From Vicinamibacterales bacterium (GTDB lineage: Bacteria > Acidobacteriota > Vicinamibacteria > Vicinamibacterales > SCN-69-37): DNA of 64,000 nucleotides. Positions 39,591 through 47,105 of this stretch are shown here, piece by piece (the stretch's first letter is position 1; each line of letters starts with the position of its first letter). The position numbers were made by a program, and so were the translations under genes. The notes beneath the pieces were generated by a model. The model did not search any database. It was given only the letters and a program-made list of their open reading frames with translations, and was not told the origin of the DNA. The stretch lies in assembly GCA_038319675.1 (NCBI GenBank), contig JBBQDM010000005.1:132850-196849 (forward strand). The letters are read 5' to 3'.

Positions 39591-39938
39591 ATGAAGATCA
39601 TCAGCGGTTTATCCGACGAAGCGATTCTCGCCGAAATTGGGCGCCGACTTGCGGCCACGAGGCTCGCCCGCAATCTCACGCAGGCCGATTTGGCGAAGCA
39701 GGCCGGCGTGTCGAAGCGCACGGTCGAGCGACTTGAGTCCGGGGAAGTGGCCGCGCGGCTTTCGGCGCTTGTGCGCGTCGGCCGGGTACTTGGCTTGGCT
39801 GATCAGTTCGATCGGCTCGTGCCCGCGCCCACGACGAGTCCAGTCGAACAACTGAAACTCACGAGGCGACGCCGGAAGCGGGCCTCGGGGGCTCGCGAGA
39901 CACCGGCGGCCGAGCCGTGGACCTGGGGGGATGAATGA
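39591..39938 (+). CDS. hipB: XRE-family HTH antitoxin HipB
   Basis: 'LARNLTQADLAKQAGVSKRTVERLESGE' HTH. 115 aa. ATGA overlap with hipA. Confidence 0.8.
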   Translation: MKIISGLSDEAILAEIGRRLAATRLARNLTQADLAKQAGVSKRTVERLESGEVAARLSALVRVGRVLGLADQFDRLVPAPTTSPVEQLKLTRRRRKRASGARETPAAEPWTWGDE

Positions 39939-41233
39939 TTGCGGAGGTGCGGCTCTGGGGACGCACCATCGGGGCTGTCTCAGAGGAGGTCGGTCGCGAT
40001 CACGTGGCATTCCAGTTCACGCCTGAGTTTGCCGCAAGCGGGATCGAAGTGGCTCCGATCGTGATGCCCCTCGACACGCGCGTGTACGAGTTTCCTGATC
40101 TGCCTCGGCGAACGTTTCAGGGCCTGCCGGGTCTGTTGGCAGACTCTCTCCCCGACCGCTTCGGCAACGCGCTGATCGACGCGTGGCTGGCCACCCAGGG
40201 CCGATCACCGGGCAGCTTCAGCGCCATTGAGCGACTCTGTTACACAGGCACGCGCGGCATGGGCGCGCTTGAATACGTCCCGACCATCGGGCCCGGCGCC
40301 GGCCGTTCCCGACAGCTCGACGTCGATGCGCTCGTCACGCTGGCCTCACACATCCTCACGACACACGACACACTGACGGGCGGCTTCGCCGACGAGGCGG
40401 CGCAGGAGACGCTTGTCGATATCCTGAGAGTCGGCACCTCTGCCGGTGGTGCACGCGCGAAGGCGGTGATCGCCTGGAATCCAGAGACCAACGAAGTGCG
40501 CTCGGGACAGGTCCCCGCCGGTCCGGGATTCAGCTACTGGCTGCTGAAGTTTGATGGCGTGGCTGGCAATCGCGACAAGGAGTTGGAAGACCCACAGGGG
40601 TACGGCGGCATCGAATACGCCTACTCGCGGATGGCGCGAGCGGCCGGAATCACCATGATGGAGTGCCGGCTCCTCACTGAGCACGGCCGCCGCCACTTCA
40701 TGACCAGGCGATTCGATCGGGATGACGATGGGCGGAAGCTGCATATGCAGACGCTGGGTGCGATGGCGCACCTCGACTACAACCAGGCGGGCGCGCACGG
40801 TTATGAGCAGGTCTTCGATGTGATGCGCCGCCTCGATCTCCCTCTGACGTCGATGGAAGAGCAGTTCCGACGGATGCTCTTTAATGTCGTCGCGCGCAAT
40901 CAGGACGACCACGTGAAGAACATCGCCTTCCTCATGGACAAGGCCGGGCAGTGGACGCTGGCGCCGGCGTATGACGTGACCTACAGCTACAACCCCTCAG
41001 GCGTGTGGACGTCAATGCATCAGATGACCATCAACGGCGCGCGAGACAGGTTCACCCGCGCCGATCTGCGCGCCGCCGCCAGAACCGCCGGCCTCAAACA
41101 GGGACGCGCCGACGCTCTGCTCGATGCCATGGTCGCCGTCGTCACTCGCTGGCCGGAGTATGCGGCCGAGGCCGCGATGCCCGGCGACGTTGTTGCCGGC
41201 ATTCAACGCGCCCATCGTCTTGACTGGCCTTAA
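39935..41233 (+). CDS. hipA: type II toxin HipA-family serine/threonine kinase
   Basis: N-terminal coupling domain 'VRLWGRTIGAVSEE...VAFQFTPEF'. 'LPGLLADSLPDRFGN', 'GTSAGGARAKAVI', catalytic region 'NQDDHVKNIAFLMD...WTLAPAYDVT'. Confidence 0.9.
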   Translation: MIAEVRLWGRTIGAVSEEVGRDHVAFQFTPEFAASGIEVAPIVMPLDTRVYEFPDLPRRTFQGLPGLLADSLPDRFGNALIDAWLATQGRSPGSFSAIERLCYTGTRGMGALEYVPTIGPGAGRSRQLDVDALVTLASHILTTHDTLTGGFADEAAQETLVDILRVGTSAGGARAKAVIAWNPETNEVRSGQVPAGPGFSYWLLKFDGVAGNRDKELEDPQGYGGIEYAYSRMARAAGITMMECRLLTEHGRRHFMTRRFDRDDDGRKLHMQTLGAMAHLDYNQAGAHGYEQVFDVMRRLDLPLTSMEEQFRRMLFNVVARNQDDHVKNIAFLMDKAGQWTLAPAYDVTYSYNPSGVWTSMHQMTINGARDRFTRADLRAAARTAGLKQGRADALLDAMVAVVTRWPEYAAEAAMPGDVVAGIQRAHRLDWP

Positions 41234-41404: not shown

Positions 41405-42760
41405 CTATTCTTCATATACGGAGATGGCCGGTTTCACTCGCACCCAGCCTTCGCCGGCCTTCCACACAAGGATGGCACCAGGCCCGTCTCGCTCAGGACA
41501 CGCCTCGCGCGTGTGGGCGATTCGCCCTTCGAGCTCGAGGCGGCCGTGCTCGTCCCAGTAGCGATCCGAATACCGCGCGCGGACGAAGCGCAGGGCGCGA
41601 TCGAACTCGTAGATCGCCGTGGCGCCGGTGGTTCCGCCTTCGGACTCGATCGTGGTCACTGTCACGCGATCATTGAGCAACGCCACTCCTGCGCGGTTGA
41701 AGGGGGCGGCCGTCACGCGATTCAGTTCGGAGCGCGCGAACGTCGCATAAAACAGCGGCGGCGTCGAGGGGCACGCCATGCAGGCGAAGGTCGTGCCCTC
41801 GGTGCCCGGCGCCTGGCCGGCGGCGGCGTTGGCGTCGAGCAGCGCGAACATCGCCTCGTCGCGCTGGTTGTTGAAGCCGCCGATCGCGAGACGGGCGTCG
41901 CCGACCCACAGCACGCTCTCGATCCAGCCCGGATTTACGAACGTGCTCAGACGGCGGCCGTCTCGATCGAGCACGGCCACCATGGCAGCCCACCAGGTAA
42001 AGTCGTGAGCCGCCACCGCGAATCGGGCGCCCGCGCCGGCCAGTCCCGACTGCCAGTCGGCCAGCACCCACGGGCCGTTGTGCGCTCCATCCCCGAAGGT
42101 CAACACGTCGTCAAACCCGAACCGCCAGCGAATGTCGCCGCGCGTCGAGAGACTGAGCAACTCGCCGCTCTGGACGGAGCGGTCGGTCTGATCCAGGTAG
42201 TAGGAAACGCCGACCAGCACGTCGGGAACCCCGTCGCCGTCGACGTCGCCGATCTGCGGCGGCCGCAGGCCCGCCGGTACGCCAGCGCGGGGCGCGAATC
42301 TGTGGATCATCCGCGACACACCTGACGCATCGGCCAGCGATACCCCGGTGTGCATGACGTCGACGCGCAGCGTGTCGGCGTCGGGAGGCGCCGGCACGCT
42401 GCGCATGACGATGGCGGCGGTCGCGAGCGTGAAGAGGAGCGCGACGGTCAAGGCCTTCGAGATGTGGCGGCGCGGGCGGGCTCCAGGGTGAATCGTGTTT
42501 TTAGGTTCGATCGGCGGTACGGTGGCGGATGGCTCGTCCAGCGTCTCCGGTTCCGGCTGGTCGCCGGCCATCCAGGCGTCGATTTCATCGGTGAACGCGA
42601 ACACCGACGTGCCCTTGCCGCCCGGCACCCGGTGCAGCGGCATGCCCTGCGCTTCCCAGCGCGTGGCGGTTCGGACATCGCGGCCGATGTAGTCAGCGAC
42701 CTCTTTCCAGGAATCAAGGCGCCGACGCTGTCCGGGACTGGGGATGTCCGCTAATGCCAT
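41405..42760 (-). CDS. membrane-anchored HTH protein with periplasmic FG-GAP/VCBS-like beta-propeller
   Basis: N-terminus 'RRLDSWKEVADYIGRDVRTATRWEAQGMPLHRV' (excisionase/MerR-type HTH). Single TM 'ALTVALLFTLATAAIVM'. Then 'IGDVDGDGVPDVLVGVSYY', W/G-rich repeats. Confidence 0.6.
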   Translation of the reverse strand: MALADIPSPGQRRRLDSWKEVADYIGRDVRTATRWEAQGMPLHRVPGGKGTSVFAFTDEIDAWMAGDQPEPETLDEPSATVPPIEPKNTIHPGARPRRHISKALTVALLFTLATAAIVMRSVPAPPDADTLRVDVMHTGVSLADASGVSRMIHRFAPRAGVPAGLRPPQIGDVDGDGVPDVLVGVSYYLDQTDRSVQSGELLSLSTRGDIRWRFGFDDVLTFGDGAHNGPWVLADWQSGLAGAGARFAVAAHDFTWWAAMVAVLDRDGRRLSTFVNPGWIESVLWVGDARLAIGGFNNQRDEAMFALLDANAAAGQAPGTEGTTFACMACPSTPPLFYATFARSELNRVTAAPFNRAGVALLNDRVTVTTIESEGGTTGATAIYEFDRALRFVRARYSDRYWDEHGRLELEGRIAHTREACPERDGPGAILVWKAGEGWVRVKPAISVYEE

Positions 42761-42838
42761 GCGTTGCCTGTTGCCGAGTCTACTCCAGCCGGCGCATGCT
42801 GCGGCGTCGGGGGCAGGTGCTCCCAGAAAGACTGCACC

Positions 42839-43477
42839 ATGATTCGTGTTTCCGGTAAGGCTCTCTTTCCTTGGATCGCGTTGCTTGTGGCGTCAGCCTG
42901 TGCGGCGAAGCCTGCGGACCGCCTCATCCAGGACCGGGCGCGGGGACCTGCCGAGCCGGTCGTGACAAAAAGGCCATGCCCGCCCGAACTTGCGGCGATC
43001 GACACGCGGTTGGCGGCTGTGGATCGCGCCCGCGGCGCCACGCGCGACCGGTTGCGCGCGACCGGCTTCGAGCGAACCGCTGCGGACCTGATCGGCGATG
43101 CGACGGCGCCGCCTGGTCTCGCCATCGACGCGGCGCGGTCGGCCGATGCGCTCGAACAACTCCTCGCGGGGCGCTCGCTGGCCTACCCGGCGCTCGCCAA
43201 CGAGGTCGACTGGATCGCCCTCAACTGGTTTGATTCGGTTCTGAAGCGTTGGACGCCGGGACACGTCCGCAGCCTGACGTCGATGACGGCGTCCGAATTC
43301 GGCGCGCTGAAGCAGGACACGGTGGCGCTTCGGCAATTAGTCTCCGACATCAGAGATCTTCGGACGCGCCGGGAAGTCCTGGCCGACTGTACCGGACGCG
43401 CATCCGCTGCGAGTGGCGGTGCGCACGCGGGAGATGCTCCAGTTAATCGCCGTACTCCAAGGAGGAATGCACCATGA
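42839..43477 (+). CDS. hypothetical lipoprotein
   Basis: 'MIRVSGKALFPWIALLVASAC' signal/lipobox. 212 aa, helical Arg/Ala-rich. ATGA overlap with the next gene. The ORF start at 42764 is rejected. Confidence 0.5.
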   Translation: MIRVSGKALFPWIALLVASACAAKPADRLIQDRARGPAEPVVTKRPCPPELAAIDTRLAAVDRARGATRDRLRATGFERTAADLIGDATAPPGLAIDAARSADALEQLLAGRSLAYPALANEVDWIALNWFDSVLKRWTPGHVRSLTSMTASEFGALKQDTVALRQLVSDIRDLRTRREVLADCTGRASAASGGAHAGDAPVNRRTPRRNAP

Positions 43478-44736
43478 CCTATGTTTCCGGTAAGGCTCTC
43501 GTTGCTTCAATCGCATTGGCGTGTCTGTTTGCGGGCGGTCCGTCTCCGGAGGCGTCGTCAGTTCCACTCGCCTGGCAGGCCGGCTGCGGGCAGTCGATGG
43601 ACGCGCTCAATCGCCTGAAGGCCGATCTTGGACTCGACCGCGCGCTCGCGGACCGCATGAACTCGCTGGCAGAAGCCGCGCGTGGAAGCGGCCAGCCGCC
43701 TCCAGCAAGCCAACTCGACTCGCTGGCTGAAGACGGCCTTGATGGGCTCACCGACGCCGGCGACCAGCTCGAACAGGCCGCCGAAGACATCGGCAGGCAA
43801 CTCGAGCAAATGCAGCTGACACGTCAGCACCTGGCCTGGAACCGCGGCGTCAGGCAGCTGCAGACCGCGCGCACGAATCTTCGTTACGTCACTCGGCCCG
43901 GATCGCTCGGCGCCGGTCGTGCGAGTGGATCGCTGTCGCCCACCGGTGTTGGCCCGCAGTGGATCGCGGAAGCGGCCGGGGCGGCGGGCGACGTCGGCTC
44001 CGCGGCGGAGAATCTGAACAGGATTGCGCTCGACGGCCAGTTCAATAATCTCGGGGGTGTCGGCATTCAGCAGGGCGCGCGGGACATGAACCCGCCGCCG
44101 AATCCCGCACCCAATCCGTGGGATGAGATGTGGAGGCGGCTGCAGGCGCAGCAGGCGCGCATTCGCAACAACGTCAAGGGGCTGAACGCCGCGCGGGCAC
44201 TGCAGGCGCGCGAGTTCCAGCAGGCGCAGCAGAATACCAACGACATGCGGCAGGCGGTGCAGCAGGCCCAGGACGTCGCCGATCAGCTCGGACAACTGGC
44301 CGCGTTGTGTAACCAGGCGCAGCAACAGCAGGCACAGAACGCTCAGCCGCAACCGGCGAACACGCCCCCGCCGGCGCAGGCGGCCGCCGCAGCGAAGGGC
44401 GGCATGGGCGCGGGCACACAAGCAGCGCTCGGCCTTGCCGCCGCGGGCGCCGCGGCCGGCGGCGTCGTGCTGTATCAAGTTGCGCAGGCGTGCAAAGAGC
44501 CGGACTACCAAAGCAGCTTCCAGGCTTGCGCGAGTGGCAGCTGCGGCGGCTGCGCCGCGATGATAGAAACTTTTCTTCCCTACTGCGATTGCGTAGAGCA
44601 GAAGCACGCCGAGGCCGCCGGTGTGGGAGCTTTATGCCGTCAGGCCCGGGACGTTATAAGAGAGGCAGAGTACCTCTACGGTTGCCTCGTCCCCAGACAG
44701 ATGACGCGGATCCCTGGTGCGGCGATCCGCCGATGA
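43474..44736 (+). CDS. hypothetical bitopic protein: signal peptide, Gln-rich coiled coil, TM, Cys-rich C-terminal domain
   Basis: Strong SD (aaggagg, 43458-43464). 'MTYVSGKALVASIALACLFAG'. 'QAQQQQAQNAQPQPANTPPPAQ'. Hydrophobic 'ALGLAAAGAAAGGVVLY'. Then 9 Cys in 'CKEPDY..FQACASGSCGGCAAMIETFLPYCDCVEQ...ALCRQ...YGC'. Confidence 0.5.
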   Translation: MTYVSGKALVASIALACLFAGGPSPEASSVPLAWQAGCGQSMDALNRLKADLGLDRALADRMNSLAEAARGSGQPPPASQLDSLAEDGLDGLTDAGDQLEQAAEDIGRQLEQMQLTRQHLAWNRGVRQLQTARTNLRYVTRPGSLGAGRASGSLSPTGVGPQWIAEAAGAAGDVGSAAENLNRIALDGQFNNLGGVGIQQGARDMNPPPNPAPNPWDEMWRRLQAQQARIRNNVKGLNAARALQAREFQQAQQNTNDMRQAVQQAQDVADQLGQLAALCNQAQQQQAQNAQPQPANTPPPAQAAAAAKGGMGAGTQAALGLAAAGAAAGGVVLYQVAQACKEPDYQSSFQACASGSCGGCAAMIETFLPYCDCVEQKHAEAAGVGALCRQARDVIREAEYLYGCLVPRQMTRIPGAAIRR

Positions 44737-47105
44737 CACGATGGTGCCGCGCGGCAGCGCGATGGGCGCTGTGTGGCGTGCTGATGGCTGTCGCGGGATG
44801 CGCGGCGCGTGCCGGCGTGCCGCATGCTGCCGGCAGTGCACCGCCCACGGACGCGCGGCCTTCTGCGAGCGAGGGCGATGAAGAGCTCACAGCGATCGAG
44901 GCGCGGCAGGCGCGCCTCGATCGTCCGCAGGCACCCGCGATTCCGCCGCCACCCGCCGGGTCGCCCGTCACATGTGACGCGCAGTCTTCGCCGGTGACAT
45001 GCGCGGCGGCGGTCGACGTCGTCGCGCCCGATGTGACGGCGTGGCTCCGCCCGCTCAACTCGGTTGAACTGAGCGCCGACGCGTTGACCGTAATCGGTCC
45101 AGACCCAGCAGACTGGATCGCCTTCGCGAGAAACAGCGCAGGGCCGGCTGTCGGCATCGAACGCGTCTACGTCGACGGCATGCCTGCGGCCGGAGCACTC
45201 ACCGCGGCGTCGATCAGCCGCGTGTCGGTCAACAGCGATCCCTTTTCGTCCGAGTACGCCGGCGCGGGGGAGATACGTGTCAACGTCGATCTGAGGCCCC
45301 CTGACCGCCGTTGGCGGCTCGGCGGGTCACTTCCCTCGGCCGGCGGCGGTGGCGGATCCCCGCTCGGTCCATCGGGCACGCCGGTGTCGCGCTCCTCTGG
45401 GTTGAGCGTGAGCGGGCCCCTGCCGCGGCTGCCGCTGACCTTCGCCGTGCATGCGACCCATCGGTTCGCGCGTCGTGGCGTGCTGTTCGTGGATCCGGCG
45501 TCGTCGGCGCTCGAGCCCGCCGATGGGGATCGCCGGCCAACCTCGCGAGGCGTCGGCCTCACCGCCGGGCTGAGCTTCGCTGCAGCTGGTGCCATCGTGC
45601 GGACGACGTTCATCGGAAGCAGCAATGAGGCGCGTCATGCGGGAATTGGAGGTACGAGGGGCCCGACGACTGGCCTGCGCCTCGAGTCCGCGTCGCGCGC
45701 GCTTCAGGCGACCTGGCGCATCGGCGCGGGCGCGCGTGTGCATCGGGGTGGGTGGTCGGTCACCCACCAGCGTCTCGACGCTGCTGCCGAGTCGCTCGAT
45801 GCCGCCGTCAGGATCGTCGGGCAACTGACAACCGGGGGCAATCCGCTCGCGGGTGAGGCTCGACGGGCCTCGGCGCTGAGCGTCAAGCACGTCGTCGAAG
45901 GAGGGTCGGGCCGATGGAAGCTCGGCGCGGAGGGCCACCACGACACTGTCTCGAACACGCGCGTCCCCAATGCCTTTGGACGCCTGCACGCCAGCACCTT
46001 GGACGCGGCGACCGGTACTTGGATCGTCACACGGGGCACGTCGACCGCGTCTGCCACAGCGACATCGGCCGCGCTGTTCGCAGAACGGGCCGCCGTCGAC
46101 ACGCCGCGCCTCAGCGCCCGTTGGGGAGTGAGAGCAGACTGGCAGAACGGCGACGGCACGTATGTGTCGCCGCGTGTGCTCGTCGCCGCGCGCGTGGCAG
46201 GGTTCCAGGTCTCCGGCGGCGCAGGGACATTCGTACAACGATGGTTTCCCGATCTCCTGATCGCCGCGGCGCACAGCGCGGCCGCGGGCAGCATCACCTA
46301 TGTGGCGCCTGATATTCCGATCGGCTCGGTGGAGGAGCGTGATCCCGCGATGGGCGTGGCAATGCGCACCGTGATGGGCGCGAACTTCGAGCGCCGGCGC
46401 GACCTGATCGTCCGCGGCGGCCTTCACCGCCGCGTGGGCGCCGTTCAGGCCGGCGTGGAACACACGTGGACGCGAGGCCAGTCATTGGCCGGAACGACGC
46501 GCGAGCGGCATGCGCTCGGCTTGCTGGACACGGTCGAGAGCAACCGCCGTCTGCGGCTGCATCAGACGCACGCGAGCGCGACGTTCAGGCTCGGCGCCGG
46601 TTCGGTCGCGGCCTATTACCAGCACGCGCGCGCCTTTGACGATGGTGGAGGGCTGCTGGCGGCGCCGGTACGCCGCGGGGACGTGGCGGCGGAATGGGGG
46701 AGAAGCTCCGGTGTGCCGCGACACGCCGCGGGCGTAACCGCCATGCTGCCCCTGCCCTGGCACGTCCGGATGTCGGTCTCCGCGCAGGGCCATGCCGGCA
46801 TACCCTTCACCGTCATCACCGGCCGCGATGCGGGCGATCTTGCGACGTTCTCCGATCGCGCGGGCCGGGCGCGAAACGACGGCGTGCTGCCGCCCTCCTT
46901 CAGAGCGTCAGTGTTTCTCGCGCGCACAGTGCGCATCCCTGGGCTCAATGGGCTGGCCTTCGACGTCGGCATTCGCGCCGACAACCTCACGGATCACCGT
47001 AACGTCACGAGCGTCGGGCCCGTCGCGGGCACGGGGATGTTCGGACGTCCGCTGGATGCCTCGCCAGGCCGTTCGGTCCAGTTCTGGGCCACGCTGGCGC
47101 GCTGA
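44733..47105 (+). CDS. outer-membrane beta-barrel protein, degenerate TonB-dependent-receptor-like
   Basis: Lipoprotein-like signal 'WALCGVLMAVAGCAARAG'. Plug-like segment 'IERVYVDGMPAAGALTAASISRVSVNSDPFSSEYAGAGEIRVNV' resembles the TBDR plug 'DG..........I....V...PfSAEYG'. Long alternating beta-strand-like body. ATGA overlap upstream. The ORF start at 44490 is rejected. Confidence 0.45.
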   Translation: MTRWCRAAARWALCGVLMAVAGCAARAGVPHAAGSAPPTDARPSASEGDEELTAIEARQARLDRPQAPAIPPPPAGSPVTCDAQSSPVTCAAAVDVVAPDVTAWLRPLNSVELSADALTVIGPDPADWIAFARNSAGPAVGIERVYVDGMPAAGALTAASISRVSVNSDPFSSEYAGAGEIRVNVDLRPPDRRWRLGGSLPSAGGGGGSPLGPSGTPVSRSSGLSVSGPLPRLPLTFAVHATHRFARRGVLFVDPASSALEPADGDRRPTSRGVGLTAGLSFAAAGAIVRTTFIGSSNEARHAGIGGTRGPTTGLRLESASRALQATWRIGAGARVHRGGWSVTHQRLDAAAESLDAAVRIVGQLTTGGNPLAGEARRASALSVKHVVEGGSGRWKLGAEGHHDTVSNTRVPNAFGRLHASTLDAATGTWIVTRGTSTASATATSAALFAERAAVDTPRLSARWGVRADWQNGDGTYVSPRVLVAARVAGFQVSGGAGTFVQRWFPDLLIAAAHSAAAGSITYVAPDIPIGSVEERDPAMGVAMRTVMGANFERRRDLIVRGGLHRRVGAVQAGVEHTWTRGQSLAGTTRERHALGLLDTVESNRRLRLHQTHASATFRLGAGSVAAYYQHARAFDDGGGLLAAPVRRGDVAAEWGRSSGVPRHAAGVTAMLPLPWHVRMSVSAQGHAGIPFTVITGRDAGDLATFSDRAGRARNDGVLPPSFRASVFLARTVRIPGLNGLAFDVGIRADNLTDHRNVTSVGPVAGTGMFGRPLDASPGRSVQFWATLAR

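What the first reader, a model, noticed from the sequence alone, without database searches (positions are those of the whole stretch)
42839..47105. Uncharacterised three-gene envelope operon: lipoprotein, Q-rich/Cys-rich bitopic protein and a degenerate TonB-dependent-receptor-like barrel
The three genes are joined by ATGA overlaps.
- A 212-aa helical lipoprotein.
- A 420-aa protein with a signal peptide, a Gln-rich coiled coil ('QAQQQQAQNAQPQ'), a predicted TM and a 9-Cys C-terminal domain ('CASGSCGGCAAMIETFLPYCDCVEQ').
- A 790-aa outer-membrane barrel. Its plug-like segment is recognisable ('VDGMPAAG...ISRVSVNSDPFSSEYAGAGEIRVNV') but it has no obvious TonB box.

With the divergent HTH-TM-propeller gene, the layout loosely parallels cell-surface signalling systems (outer-membrane receptor, bitopic transducer, cytoplasmic regulator; FecA/FecR/FecI logic). 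The parts here are entirely different. I recognise no named family for the first two genes.
Basis: inference. Interest (0 to 1): 0.6.

Follow-up and report, generated by a model that had tools for sequence, protein, structure and literature searches.

The report
Rare outer-membrane transporter and partner module
A soil acidobacterium carries a rare gene cassette: a very diverged TonB-type outer-membrane barrel, an exported cysteine-rich helical partner with no known relatives, and a membrane-bound regulator; its function is unknown, and the "lipoprotein" gene is a split-off piece of the barrel.

Summary
The three ORFs and both ATGA overlaps are real. g2 and g3 are under purifying selection (dN/dS 0.28-0.36), and the antisense ORF is a shadow frame.

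- **g3:** it has a TonB-dependent-transporter fold (Foldseek E~1e-25) and is a remote member of the Oar-like PF25183 clade. It falls below Pfam thresholds, carries a lipobox and has a short plug. Relatives show an E-x-V-x-V-x-A TonB-box-like motif that is degenerate in this copy.
- **g2:** it is an orphan, with 29 clusters among 1.84 billion representatives. It has a signal peptide, a Cys-stapled helical domain, a Q/P spacer, a weakly hydrophobic Gly/Ala segment and an 8-Cys tail.
- **g1:** it is not a conserved third gene. It is a chimera of a duplicated g2 5' end, the barrel's optional N-terminal "X" domain (fused to g3 in relatives) and former g2 leader.

The recurrent unit is g2+g3. In this clade it always sits divergent from g0, a lambda-Nu1-like wHTH-TM-propeller regulator, across a conserved 74-83 bp spacer. 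One contig holds two complete tandem copies. The g2 tail type tracks the barrel's N-terminal type.

The best reading is a g0-regulated transporter with a dedicated periplasmic partner. Fec-like signalling remains possible but unproven. This is a new variant of a known kind.

The parts
41405..42760 (-). g0: membrane-bound one-component regulator. It has an N-terminal lambda-gpNu1/MerR-like winged HTH (about residues 14-70), one TM (about 100-122) and a ~320-aa periplasmic beta-propeller-like domain. The domain carries an FG-GAP-like DxDxDG motif and invariant C327-x2-C330 and C421.
   Evidence: Pfam gives Phage_Nu1 at 3.3e-5 and FG-GAP at 2.7e-4, both below cut-off. A profile of 34 homologues hits lambda terminase small-subunit DNA-binding domains in the PDB at E 2e-6, and designed/PQQ propellers weakly. 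The TM scores KD 1.98. g0 lies divergent from g2 in all clade loci.
42761..42838 (.). Conserved divergent control region. Proposed overlapping promoters are Pg2 (TTGCCG 42771-42776, 18-nt spacer, CATGCT 42795-42800) and Pg0 on the minus strand (-10 TAGACT = complement of 42777-42782; its -35 is degenerate in this copy). A GCATGC-centred imperfect dyad lies at about 42789-42806.
   Evidence: An alignment of 8 loci shows an invariant block TTGyCTGTTG..AGTcTAC..CATGCT.CGGCAA. It includes a g0 homologue that lacks g2/g3. The promoter assignment is my inference. The tool's sigma-70 scan found nothing at its 9/12 threshold.
42839..43477 (+). g1: 212-aa probable lipoprotein (Cys21 in LVASAC) carrying the orphan 'X' domain (residues about 43-184, nt 42965-43390, closed by C46 and C184). 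It is a chimera. Its first ~15 codons and its RBS region duplicate the g2 start. Its last ~14 codons (about 43433-43474) are the former g2 leader.
   Evidence: The X domain is 46-57% identical to the N-terminal extension fused to the barrel in P0005/6/7/10/11/14 and L004. The g1 tail matches the g0-g2 spacer of L011. The start is shared with g2. The orthologue in L015 is 82% identical; dN/dS is 0.39 for the X domain and 1.05 for the N-terminal 42 aa. The SD is weakened, AGAAAG against AGGAGG.
43474..44736 (+). g2: exported 420-aa orphan protein.
- Signal peptide: residues 1 to about 30.
- Helical domain: 38-290, bracketed by conserved C38 and C279.
- Q/P-rich spacer: 291 to about 312.
- Lys-flanked Gly/Ala-rich weakly hydrophobic segment: about 313-337, nt 44410-44484.
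- 8-Cys tail: 340-404, nt 44491-44685.
   Evidence: Twenty homologues by word search and 29 representative clusters in 1.84 billion proteins. AF2 gives mean pLDDT 71.6; the protein is helical and the spacer and Gly/Ala segment are disordered. No PDB fold match was found, best E 0.19. dN/dS is 0.18-0.30 in the helical domain. A strong SD (AGGAGG) lies 8 nt upstream.
44733..47105 (+). g3: 790-aa lipidated, far-diverged Oar-clade TonB-dependent-transporter-like barrel.
- Lipobox: VAGC, with Cys23.
- Disordered periplasmic N-extension: 24-105, with a remnant of the X-domain start (ELTAIEARQARLDR) and a Cys loop C81...C90.
- TonB-box-like strand: A92-A98 (AAVDVVA, nt 45006-45026).
- Short plug: about 106-200, nt 45048-45332.
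- Barrel: about 201-790.
- The C-terminus is ...ATLAR.
   Evidence: AF2 gives pLDDT 65.5 and pTM 0.65. Foldseek PDB top hits are all TBDTs: PirA 7.8e-25, FusA, PfeA, BtuB, with TM 0.55-0.70. hhalign against an own-genome PF25183 barrel gives 79% probability, E 1.6e-5. Three of 13 homologues hit PF25183 weakly. The A1 profile hits ~880-aa barrels that are themselves PF25183 members. No PF25183 hit falls at this locus in the genome-wide scan.

Best explanation
**What it is**
The locus is an accessory envelope cassette whose core is a two-gene unit.
- g3 is a lipid-anchored, strongly diverged Oar-type TonB-dependent transporter.
- g2 is its dedicated exported partner.
- g2 is made with a Sec signal peptide. 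It folds in the periplasm into a disulfide-stapled helical domain, followed by a Q/P spacer.
- g2 ends in a Gly/Ala-rich segment and a disulfide-knotted Cys tail.

**How it most likely works**
- I propose that the tail and Gly/Ala segment sit at the outer membrane, docked on the barrel's periplasmic N-terminal region. That region is a lipid anchor plus Cys loop, with or without the X domain, or a CarboxypepD_reg domain in the other subtype.
- The helical domain then projects into the periplasm.
- TonB (nine TonB_C proteins in this genome) would engage the E-x-V-x-V-x-A strand and gate the short plug, moving a substrate that is still unknown.
- In this genus-level clade the pair is controlled by g0, a ToxR-like-topology regulator. 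Its Nu1/MerR-type HTH would bind the conserved, overlapping divergent promoters. Its periplasmic propeller would sense the cue, possibly the state of g2 and the barrel. That last step is the Fec-like element.
- g1 is a lineage-specific fission product. It provides the barrel's X domain in trans as a separate lipoprotein.

**Shown versus inferred**
- Shown: fold, homology, gene linkage, domain fission, selection, promoter-region conservation.
- Inferred: topology of the g2 tail, g2-g3 contact, g0 binding, TonB dependence, direction of transport.
For: - **g3 is a TBDT:** fold and clade are shown.
- **g2+g3 recur together:** the pair is adjacent, mostly with 4-nt overlaps, in the window, L001, L004/5, L010, the P0011 locus and G518 (GTGA). 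It recurs across very different flanks.
- **Architecture outlasts sequence:** remote pairs keep the g2 architecture although sequence similarity is lost (L017, G518).
- **Tail tracks barrel type:** the 8-Cys tail goes with lipobox barrels (window, L001, L002 twice, L004/5, L010). The 6-Cys tail goes with CarboxypepD_reg barrels (L015, L016, G440).
- **Mosaic history:** dS is 0.57-0.62 in the helical domain, 1.1-2.1 in the tail and 0.7-1.0 in the barrel.
- **Periplasmic tail:** Cys counts are even (2+8 or 2+6), the tail-side flank is acidic or neutral, and the Gly/Ala segment has a median apparent insertion energy of +3.4 kcal/mol.
- **g0 linkage:** shown. The tandem duplicated triplet is 56-65% identical between copies. 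The spacer is conserved. The HTH type is shown.
- **X domain:** it is fused to the barrel in relatives and free here.
- **TonB supply:** nine TonB_C genes are present in the genome.
Against:
- The tail-barrel covariation can be explained by simple linkage. The g2 3' end abuts g3, so one recombination tract moves both.
- The Gly/Ala segment is Lys-flanked. In 2 of 33 members it is hydrophobic enough (about 0.1 kcal/mol) to be a true inner-membrane anchor. The tail would then be cytoplasmic and metal-binding.
- The window copy has lost the acidic and Thr residues of the TonB box.
- The barrel ends in Arg rather than an aromatic residue.
- g0 relatives occur without g2/g3, and g2/g3-like pairs occur without g0. 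Signalling between them is therefore not required for the pair.
- The sigma-70 scan found no promoter.
Confidence: 0.4

Rival explanations
1. This is true trans-envelope (cell-surface) signalling with new parts. Ligand binding at the barrel is passed through its periplasmic N-terminal extension (X domain or Cys loop) to g2. g2 is anchored in the inner membrane by the Gly/Ala segment, with a cytoplasmic Zn/Fe-binding Cys tail. From g2 the signal passes to g0, which switches on the divergent promoters. g2 would be a FecR analogue with inverted topology, and g0 a membrane-bound substitute for the ECF sigma.
For: - The N-terminal extension lies upstream of the TonB-box-like strand, in the same position as the STN signalling domain of transducers.
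- g0, g2 and g3 were co-duplicated in L002.
- g0 is adjacent in all clade loci.
- The g2 helical domain and g0 share a shallower divergence than the tail and barrel.
- The Gly/Ala segment is Lys-flanked, and the tail carries CxxC and CxC motifs.
Against: - Pairs exist without g0 (G518, L017).
- G440 combines a g0 orthologue with an unrelated g2 helical domain.
- The segment is too weakly hydrophobic for efficient stop-transfer in most members, and there is no positive-inside bias on the tail side.
- No STN domain, FecR domain or sigma factor was found.
Confidence: 0.22
2. This is an export or surface-display pair. As Myxococcus Oar is required for PopC secretion, g3 would move its co-encoded partner g2 outward. 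g2 would remain tethered, with the slim Gly/Ala segment in or at the barrel and the disulfide-knotted tail acting as a periplasmic stopper or dock.
For: - g3 belongs to the Oar-like clade. That clade contains the one TBDT shown to be needed for protein secretion (PMC6434023).
- The plug is short.
- The tail tracks the barrel.
- The linker is small-residue and uncharged.
- Cys counts are even.
Against: - The helical domain is the most conserved part (dN/dS about 0.2), unlike typical surface-exposed, diversifying proteins.
- Nothing shows that g2 leaves the periplasm.
- Translational coupling suggests matched amounts rather than cargo excess.
- The single Oar precedent has no tethered partner.
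Confidence: 0.15
3. This is an ordinary nutrient or metal importer, and g2 is only a loosely associated periplasmic or inner-membrane accessory (binding protein or chaperone). g0 is an unrelated neighbouring regulator, and g1 is a decaying remnant without function.
For: - Almost all characterised TBDTs are importers (established knowledge; Foldseek hits are importers).
- g1 has a weakened SD. Its dN/dS is 1.05 over the first 42 residues and 0.57 overall.
- g0 relatives pair with many other genes.
Against: - The g2-g3 coupling is strict and its architecture is conserved despite sequence loss.
- The triplet was duplicated as a whole.
- The X domain of g1 is still under purifying selection (0.39).
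Confidence: 0.18

Closest known systems
Oar-like TonB-dependent transporters (Pfam PF25183 OMP_b-brl_4 with CarboxypepD_reg N-terminal extension; M. xanthus Oar, PMC6434023)
   Same: - TBDT fold, meaning barrel plus plug.
- Remote but detectable homology to PF25183 barrels of the same genome and order.
- Subtype-B relatives carry the CarboxypepD_reg extension.
- The plug motif VDGxP...I.RI.VN.DPFSAEY and an E-x-V-x-V-x-A strand lie upstream of the plug.
   Different: - The window protein matches no Pfam model.
- The extension is replaced by a lipobox, a Cys loop and an optional orphan X domain.
- The plug is short, about 95 aa.
- The C-terminus ends in Arg.
- The barrel is always preceded by the g2-type partner, which canonical Oar-like genes lack.
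TonB-dependent transducer / cell-surface signalling systems (FecA-FecR-FecI and relatives)
   Same: - An outer-membrane TBDT with a periplasmic N-terminal extension placed before the TonB box.
- A co-encoded envelope partner.
- A dedicated transcription regulator next door.
   Different: - No STN domain, no FecR/anti-sigma domain and no ECF sigma.
- The regulator is itself membrane-bound and uses a Nu1/MerR-like HTH.
- The partner's orientation is inverted relative to FecR.
- The pair also exists without the regulator.
ToxR/ToxS, TcpP/TcpH and CadC-type membrane-bound one-component regulators
   Same: - g0 has a cytoplasmic N-terminal DNA-binding domain, one TM and a periplasmic sensor domain with conserved Cys.
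- It has a co-encoded periplasmic partner candidate (g2).
   Different: - The DNA-binding domain is lambda-gpNu1/excisionase/MerR-like, not OmpR-type.
- The ectodomain is a propeller-like ~320-aa domain.
- The N-module is massively expanded in this order, with many different ectodomains.
MerR-type divergent overlapping promoters (mer operon paradigm)
   Same: - A short spacer of 74-83 bp.
- The proposed -10 and -35 elements of the two divergent promoters interdigitate.
- An 18-nt spacer contains an imperfect GCATGC-centred dyad.
- The regulator's HTH belongs to the MerR-like superfamily.
   Different: - Promoter elements are weak matches, and the consensus scan did not call them.
- g0 lacks MerR's coiled-coil and effector domain.
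- Binding is untested.

Membership tests
TonB-dependent transporter (g3) | 22-stranded beta-barrel fold | tested here: met
   The AF2 model (pLDDT 65.5) has a long antiparallel strand array from about residue 219 to 789. All top Foldseek PDB hits are TBDTs, with E 8e-25 to 1e-17 and TM 0.55-0.71.
TonB-dependent transporter (g3) | N-terminal plug domain inside the barrel | tested here: inconclusive
   Residues about 106-200 form a small alpha/beta unit carrying the conserved VDGMP...ISRVSVNSDPFSSEY motif. Foldseek alignments span nearly whole targets. However, the unit is only about 95 aa, and the Pfam Plug model hits just 1 of 13 relatives, at E 0.076. I could not inspect coordinates.
TonB-dependent transporter (g3) | TonB box (acidic-T-hydrophobic-x-V-x-A/G strand before the plug) | tested here: inconclusive
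   Relatives have [RQ]E[TSA]V.V.[AG]. The window copy reads AAAVDVVA, which keeps the alternating V-x-V-x-A but lacks the E/T. The segment is disordered in the model, as expected for a TonB box. Binding is not testable here.
TonB-dependent transporter (g3) | Match to curated family HMMs (PF00593 / PF07715 / PF25183) above gathering score | tested here: not met
   P0003 has no Pfam or NCBIfam hit, and the genome-wide PF25183 scan has no hit at this locus. Only 3 of 13 relatives give weak PF25183 hits, best 3.8e-5. Homology is supported only by profile-profile comparison and transitive searches.
TonB-dependent transporter (g3) | C-terminal aromatic residue of the OMP beta-signal | tested here: not met
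   The family ends in ...FWA(x)LAR, and the window copy in ATLAR. The remote G518 copy ends in ...ASWF.
Cell-surface signalling (FecIRA-type) | STN signalling domain on the transducer, FecR-type anti-sigma, and ECF sigma factor | tested here: not met
   None of these domains was detected in g0-g3 or their relatives. The neighbours are hipBA and a 2-oxoacid oxidoreductase operon.
ToxR-like membrane-bound one-component regulator (g0) | Cytoplasmic N-terminal DNA-binding domain, single TM and periplasmic domain | tested here: met
   The Nu1-like wHTH matches at E 2e-6 against PDB 6hn7/1j9i. One hydrophobic segment spans 100-122, KD 1.98. A C-terminal ~320-aa domain gives FG-GAP and propeller hints.
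ToxR-like membrane-bound one-component regulator (g0) | OmpR/PhoB-type winged helix (Trans_reg_C) | tested here: not met
   There is no Trans_reg_C hit. The HTH is Phage_Nu1/HTH_17 type.
Bacterial lipoprotein (g3, g1) | Signal peptide ending in a lipobox [LVI][ASTVI][GAS]C | tested here: met
   g3 has VAGC at residues 20-23, and most full-length relatives have L/M-x-[AG]-C. g1 has LVASAC (Cys21), which fits only the looser PROSITE-style pattern that I recall from memory. Lipidation itself is not testable here.

The most novel reading that the evidence does not exclude
g2-type proteins define a previously unrecognised class of dedicated TonB-dependent-transporter partners. Each has a Cys-stapled helical periplasmic domain, a Q/P spacer, a glycine-zipper-like segment and a disulfide-knot tail that plugs into or docks on its cognate barrel. 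In this clade they couple the barrel to a membrane-embedded Nu1/MerR-type transcription factor. That would be a sigma-factor-independent form of cell-surface signalling, or alternatively a two-partner, TonB-powered surface-display system.
Probability: 0.2. Interest if true: 0.7.

Novelty: new variant of a known kind. Interest (0 to 1): 0.45.

Why it matters
TonB-dependent transporters are the main gateway for scarce nutrients in Gram-negative bacteria, and Acidobacteriota encode very many of the poorly understood Oar-like kind.

- **A new partner architecture.** This module pairs such a barrel with a partner unlike SusD, FecR, hemophores or TonB. The pairing persists even where the partner's sequence has diverged beyond recognition.
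- **A natural experiment.** The barrel's N-terminal extension occurs fused, absent, or split off as a separate lipoprotein. This can be used to ask what such extensions do.
- **An unstudied regulator class.** g0 belongs to a large family of membrane-bound regulators with a phage-Nu1-type HTH, expanded in Vicinamibacterales.
- **If the partner contacts the barrel.** The system would then give either a sigma-independent route for outer-membrane-to-DNA signalling or a second example of TBDT-dependent protein export.

The module is rare. It was found in 2 of 201 genomes of the order by g2 profile, plus one remote pair, and in about 29 clusters worldwide. Its ecological weight is therefore probably small.

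Tried and rejected
- **Named families for g1-g3:** Pfam and NCBIfam gave nothing.
- **PDB sequence-profile searches:** the barrel (A1) gave only chance 14-3-3 hits at E about 2. The X domain (A4) gave nothing meaningful.
- **Foldseek on the g2 model:** only generic or designed helical bundles, best E 0.19.
- **g2 relatives in 185,579 species genomes:** the pattern scan found none. The profile search found none in 400 phylum genomes, and only G440 in 200 genomes of the order.
- **Antisense ORF 43558-44607 as the real gene:** rejected. The sense frame has the lowest dN/dS in all three comparisons, and the sense product has a signal peptide and conserved Cys.
- **g2 as a lipoprotein:** rejected. 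The Cys in its signal peptide is preceded by L/F/M and is absent in two homologues.
- **Haem-binding tail:** rejected, because there is no CxxCH.
- **Sigma-54 promoter in the spacer:** considered because NtrC-type genes flank some loci. No GG-N10-GC arrangement is present (by eye).
- **Sigma-70 consensus scan:** no site called, so my promoter assignment rests on conservation only.
- **Intrinsic terminator after g3:** none found.
- **Widespread ~880-910-aa barrels as the same module:** these match only the last ~200 positions of the g3 profile. They have a different 320-347-aa upstream partner.
- **P0011 locus:** no DNA was available. It has a 660-aa gene in the g1 position.

Full report
**1. 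The observation**

Table-11 ORF listing and translation give four genes.
- g1: 42839-43477, 212 aa
- g2: 43474-44736, 420 aa
- g3: 44733-47105, 790 aa
- g0: 41405-42760, divergent, 451 aa

Both junctions are ATGA overlaps. A convergent 2-oxoacid oxidoreductase gene ends the unit 3 nt after g3. No intrinsic terminator is called there.

GC3 is only mildly elevated in g1 and g2 (0.72 and 0.755), against 0.77-0.83 in neighbouring genes. I therefore relied on comparative evidence for coding.

dN/dS values:

| Comparison | dN/dS |
|---|---|
| g2, sense frame, against three to four orthologues | 0.28-0.31 |
| g2, antisense shadow frame | 0.38-0.46 |
| g2, other frames | above 1 |
| g3 | 0.36 |
| g0 | 0.17 |
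| g1, overall | 0.57 |
| g1, central X domain | 0.39 |
| g1, first 42 residues | 1.05 |

No Pfam or NCBIfam model matches g1, g2 or g3.

**2. The barrel (g3)**

Only 13 homologues were found among 5.8 billion clustered proteins. With their alignment, AlphaFold2 gives a barrel model with pLDDT 65.5 and pTM 0.65. Residues 1-105 are disordered, and residues about 106-200 form a small alpha/beta unit.

Foldseek against the PDB returns only TonB-dependent transporters at the top: PirA at 7.8e-25, then FusA, PfeA, BtuB, YddB and others, with TM 0.55-0.71.

Sequence links to the Oar-like clade:
- The family is below Pfam thresholds. Three of 13 members give weak PF25183 (Oar-like barrel) hits, and one carries CarboxypepD_reg.
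- hhalign against a canonical PF25183 barrel of the same genome gives 79% probability and E 1.6e-5 over 382 columns.
- The family profile hits the C-terminal ~200 residues of ~880-910-aa barrels in 151 of 201 genomes of the order. One of those barrels hits PF25183 at 4e-33.
- The genome has about 18 canonical PF25183 barrels, none at this locus, and nine TonB_C proteins.

Unusual features:
- a canonical lipobox, VAGC with Cys23
- a conserved Cys loop, TC...V.C
- a short plug
- a C-terminal Arg

Just before the plug, relatives have [RQ]-E-[TSA]-V-x-V-x-[AG], which matches the TonB-box pattern known from BtuB, FepA and FhuA (my knowledge). The window copy reads AAAVDVVA.

**3. g1 is a split-off barrel domain**

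In the barrel alignment, six homologues carry a ~140-aa insertion between the lipobox and the Cys loop. This insertion is 46-57% identical to the core of g1, including the DWIA(L/A)NWFD motif and flanking invariant Cys. I call it the X domain.
- It has no PDB or Pfam relative.
- It was found in no other genome among 201 of the order.
- The window's g3 retains only the first ~14 residues of X.

The edges of g1 reveal how it arose.
- Its RBS region and first ~15 codons duplicate those of g2.
- Its last ~14 codons match the g0-g2 intergenic leader of a relative that lacks g1 (L011).

g1 is therefore a chimera of three parts: a duplicated g2 5' end, the lipobox and X domain from a barrel gene, and the old g2 leader read as a tail.

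A free g1 exists only here and in the closest metagenomic relative, L015 (82% identity). The window's g1 Shine-Dalgarno is weakened, AGAAAG against AGGAGG.

**4. The partner (g2)**

Twenty homologues were found by word search. An exhaustive HMM search found 29 representative clusters among 1.84 billion proteins, 18 of them at E below 1e-10.

Architecture:
- a signal-peptide-like N-terminus
- a helical domain with pLDDT above 90, bracketed by conserved C38 and C279
- a Q/P-rich spacer
- a Lys-flanked, uncharged Gly/Ala-rich 19-22-residue segment
- a tail with eight invariant Cys

There is no fold match in the PDB.

The Gly/Ala segment is only marginally hydrophobic.

| Segment | Measure | Value |
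|---|---|---|
| Gly/Ala, across the family | KD | 1.1-2.3 |
| Gly/Ala, window copy | Hessa-type sum | +4.2 kcal/mol |
| Gly/Ala, family median | Hessa-type sum | +3.4 kcal/mol |
| Gly/Ala, members at or below 1.5 | count | 2 of 33 |
| g0 TM | Hessa-type sum | +1.3 kcal/mol |

The tail-side flank is acidic or neutral. With even Cys counts in both parts, I lean about 60:40 towards a fully periplasmic, disulfide-bonded protein. The alternative is an inner-membrane anchor with a cytoplasmic metal-binding tail.

**5. What recurs**

The layout g0 (divergent), then g2, then g3 is found in these places:
- L001
- L002, as two complete tandem copies that are 56-65% identical gene for gene
- L003
- L004/L005
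- L010
- L011, which is cut by the contig end

The flanking genes differ in every case.

There are two subtypes.
- Type A is the window's type: an 8-Cys tail with a lipobox barrel, with or without X.
- Type B has a 6-Cys tail with a CarboxypepD_reg barrel. It occurs in L015, L016 and G440, a species of the window's own genus.

L015 combines a window-like g0, g1 and g2 helical domain (87% identity) with a type-B tail and barrel. The breakpoint therefore lies in the low-complexity spacer.

Synonymous divergence agrees with this mosaic history.

| Region | dS |
|---|---|
| g2 helical domain | 0.57-0.62 |
| g2 tail | 1.1-2.1 |
| barrel | 0.7-1.0 |

Remote pairs keep the g2 architecture next to a CarboxypepD_reg barrel, but have no detectable g2 sequence similarity and no g0. 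That architecture is a signal peptide, a Cys-bracketed helical domain, a poly-Q/P spacer, a Lys-flanked Gly/Ala segment and a Cys-rich tail. These pairs are L017 and G518; G518 has a GTGA overlap.

The ancient core is therefore g2-like plus barrel.

**6. The regulator (g0)**

A profile of 34 homologues matches the lambda gpNu1 winged-HTH DNA-binding domain at E 2e-6, and matches propeller proteins weakly. Pfam gives sub-threshold Phage_Nu1, HTH_17 and FG-GAP hits.

One homologue is named as coming from a Vicinamibacterales MAG.

Distribution of g0 relatives:
- The HTH+TM module is expanded across the order, with many different ectodomains.
- Full-length g0 relatives also sit next to unrelated secreted-protein genes: a Kelch propeller, an RCC1-collagen-like protein and a 203-aa protein.
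- Genomes with full-length g0 often lack g2.

The 74-83-bp g0-g2 spacer contains a strongly conserved block. The block is also present upstream of a g0 homologue that lacks g2/g3.

I read the block as two interdigitated divergent promoters with a GCATGC-centred dyad, resembling the mer paradigm. The consensus scanner calls nothing there, so this is inference.

**7. Distribution**

The g2 profile gave these results:
- 1 of 401 genomes of the phylum, the window's own
- 2 of 201 genomes of the order, both in the window's genus, where 2 of 8 sampled carry it
- none in a pattern scan of 185,579 species genomes

This is a rare, patchy, recombining accessory cassette. In the window it lies beside a hipBA module (note e1-3609054).

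**8. Interpretation**

The best-supported statement is that g3 is a TonB-type transporter of the Oar-like clade with a dedicated exported partner, g2. In this clade the pair is under the control of the membrane-bound regulator g0. g1 supplies the barrel's optional N-terminal extension in trans.

That the g2 tail docks on the barrel's periplasmic N-terminal region is suggested by the type A/B covariation. Physical linkage confounds this, because the g2 3' end abuts g3.

Fec-like signalling is possible. The extension sits where transducers carry their signalling domain, and the triplet was co-duplicated. It is weakened by pairs that lack g0 and by g0 relatives that have other neighbours.

Oar/PopC-like export (PMC6434023) is a further possibility.

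No substrate can be inferred.

The scan's earlier notes hold nothing similar on other DNA.

Noticed in passing
window 41405-42760, and 121 genomes of the order: The N-terminal Nu1-like wHTH+TM module of g0 is massively expanded in this order. There are up to nine hits per genome, in ORFs of 430-1270 aa with many different C-terminal ectodomains. This is an apparently unstudied class of membrane-bound one-component regulators.
   Followed up: partly
L013 5704-6987 (-) and L012 4710-6791 (-): g0 homologues that lack g2/g3 lie divergent from other secreted proteins. One combines RCC1-like repeats with a collagen-like GPx/GPM tract. Another is a 693-aa Kelch propeller. The L013 spacer keeps the same conserved promoter block.
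   Followed up: partly
L033, L037, L038 (G477, G383, G547): A widespread family of ~880-910-aa CarboxypepD_reg/PF25183 barrels is present in 151 of 201 genomes of the order. In the three loci read (L033, L037, L038) each barrel is preceded by a 317-347-aa signal-peptide protein; the one scanned (L033) has no Pfam match, and L033 and L038 have a histidine-kinase gene upstream. These are the nearest common relatives of g3.
   Followed up: partly
L031 3128-6867 (G518): A remote g2-like protein has a run of about 28 consecutive Gln, a P-rich spacer and a 6-Cys tail. It overlaps (GTGA) a CarboxypepD_reg barrel that ends in a canonical aromatic residue. No g0 is present; the upstream genes are a Tat-signal protein and a CHAT/TPR-like protein.
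   Followed up: partly
L002 6539-16382: Two complete g0-g2-g3 modules lie in tandem on one metagenomic contig. Their identities are 56% (g0), 57% (g2) and 65% (g3), which indicates an old whole-module duplication.
   Followed up: yes
P0170 (276 aa): The P-rich spacer, Gly/Ala segment and 8-Cys tail are attached to a completely different, non-helical N-terminal domain. The tail module therefore appears to be portable.
   Followed up: no
window 39591-41233: A hipB/hipA-like toxin-antitoxin pair lies immediately beyond g0.
   Followed up: no
L001, L011, L014 flanks: Several g0 loci share a gidA / xerC-like integrase / NtrC-type activator / PAS-HisKA neighbourhood. In L014 that neighbourhood holds g0 but no g2/g3. 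This suggests the g2-g3 cassette was inserted next to, or lost from beside, a pre-existing g0.
   Followed up: partly
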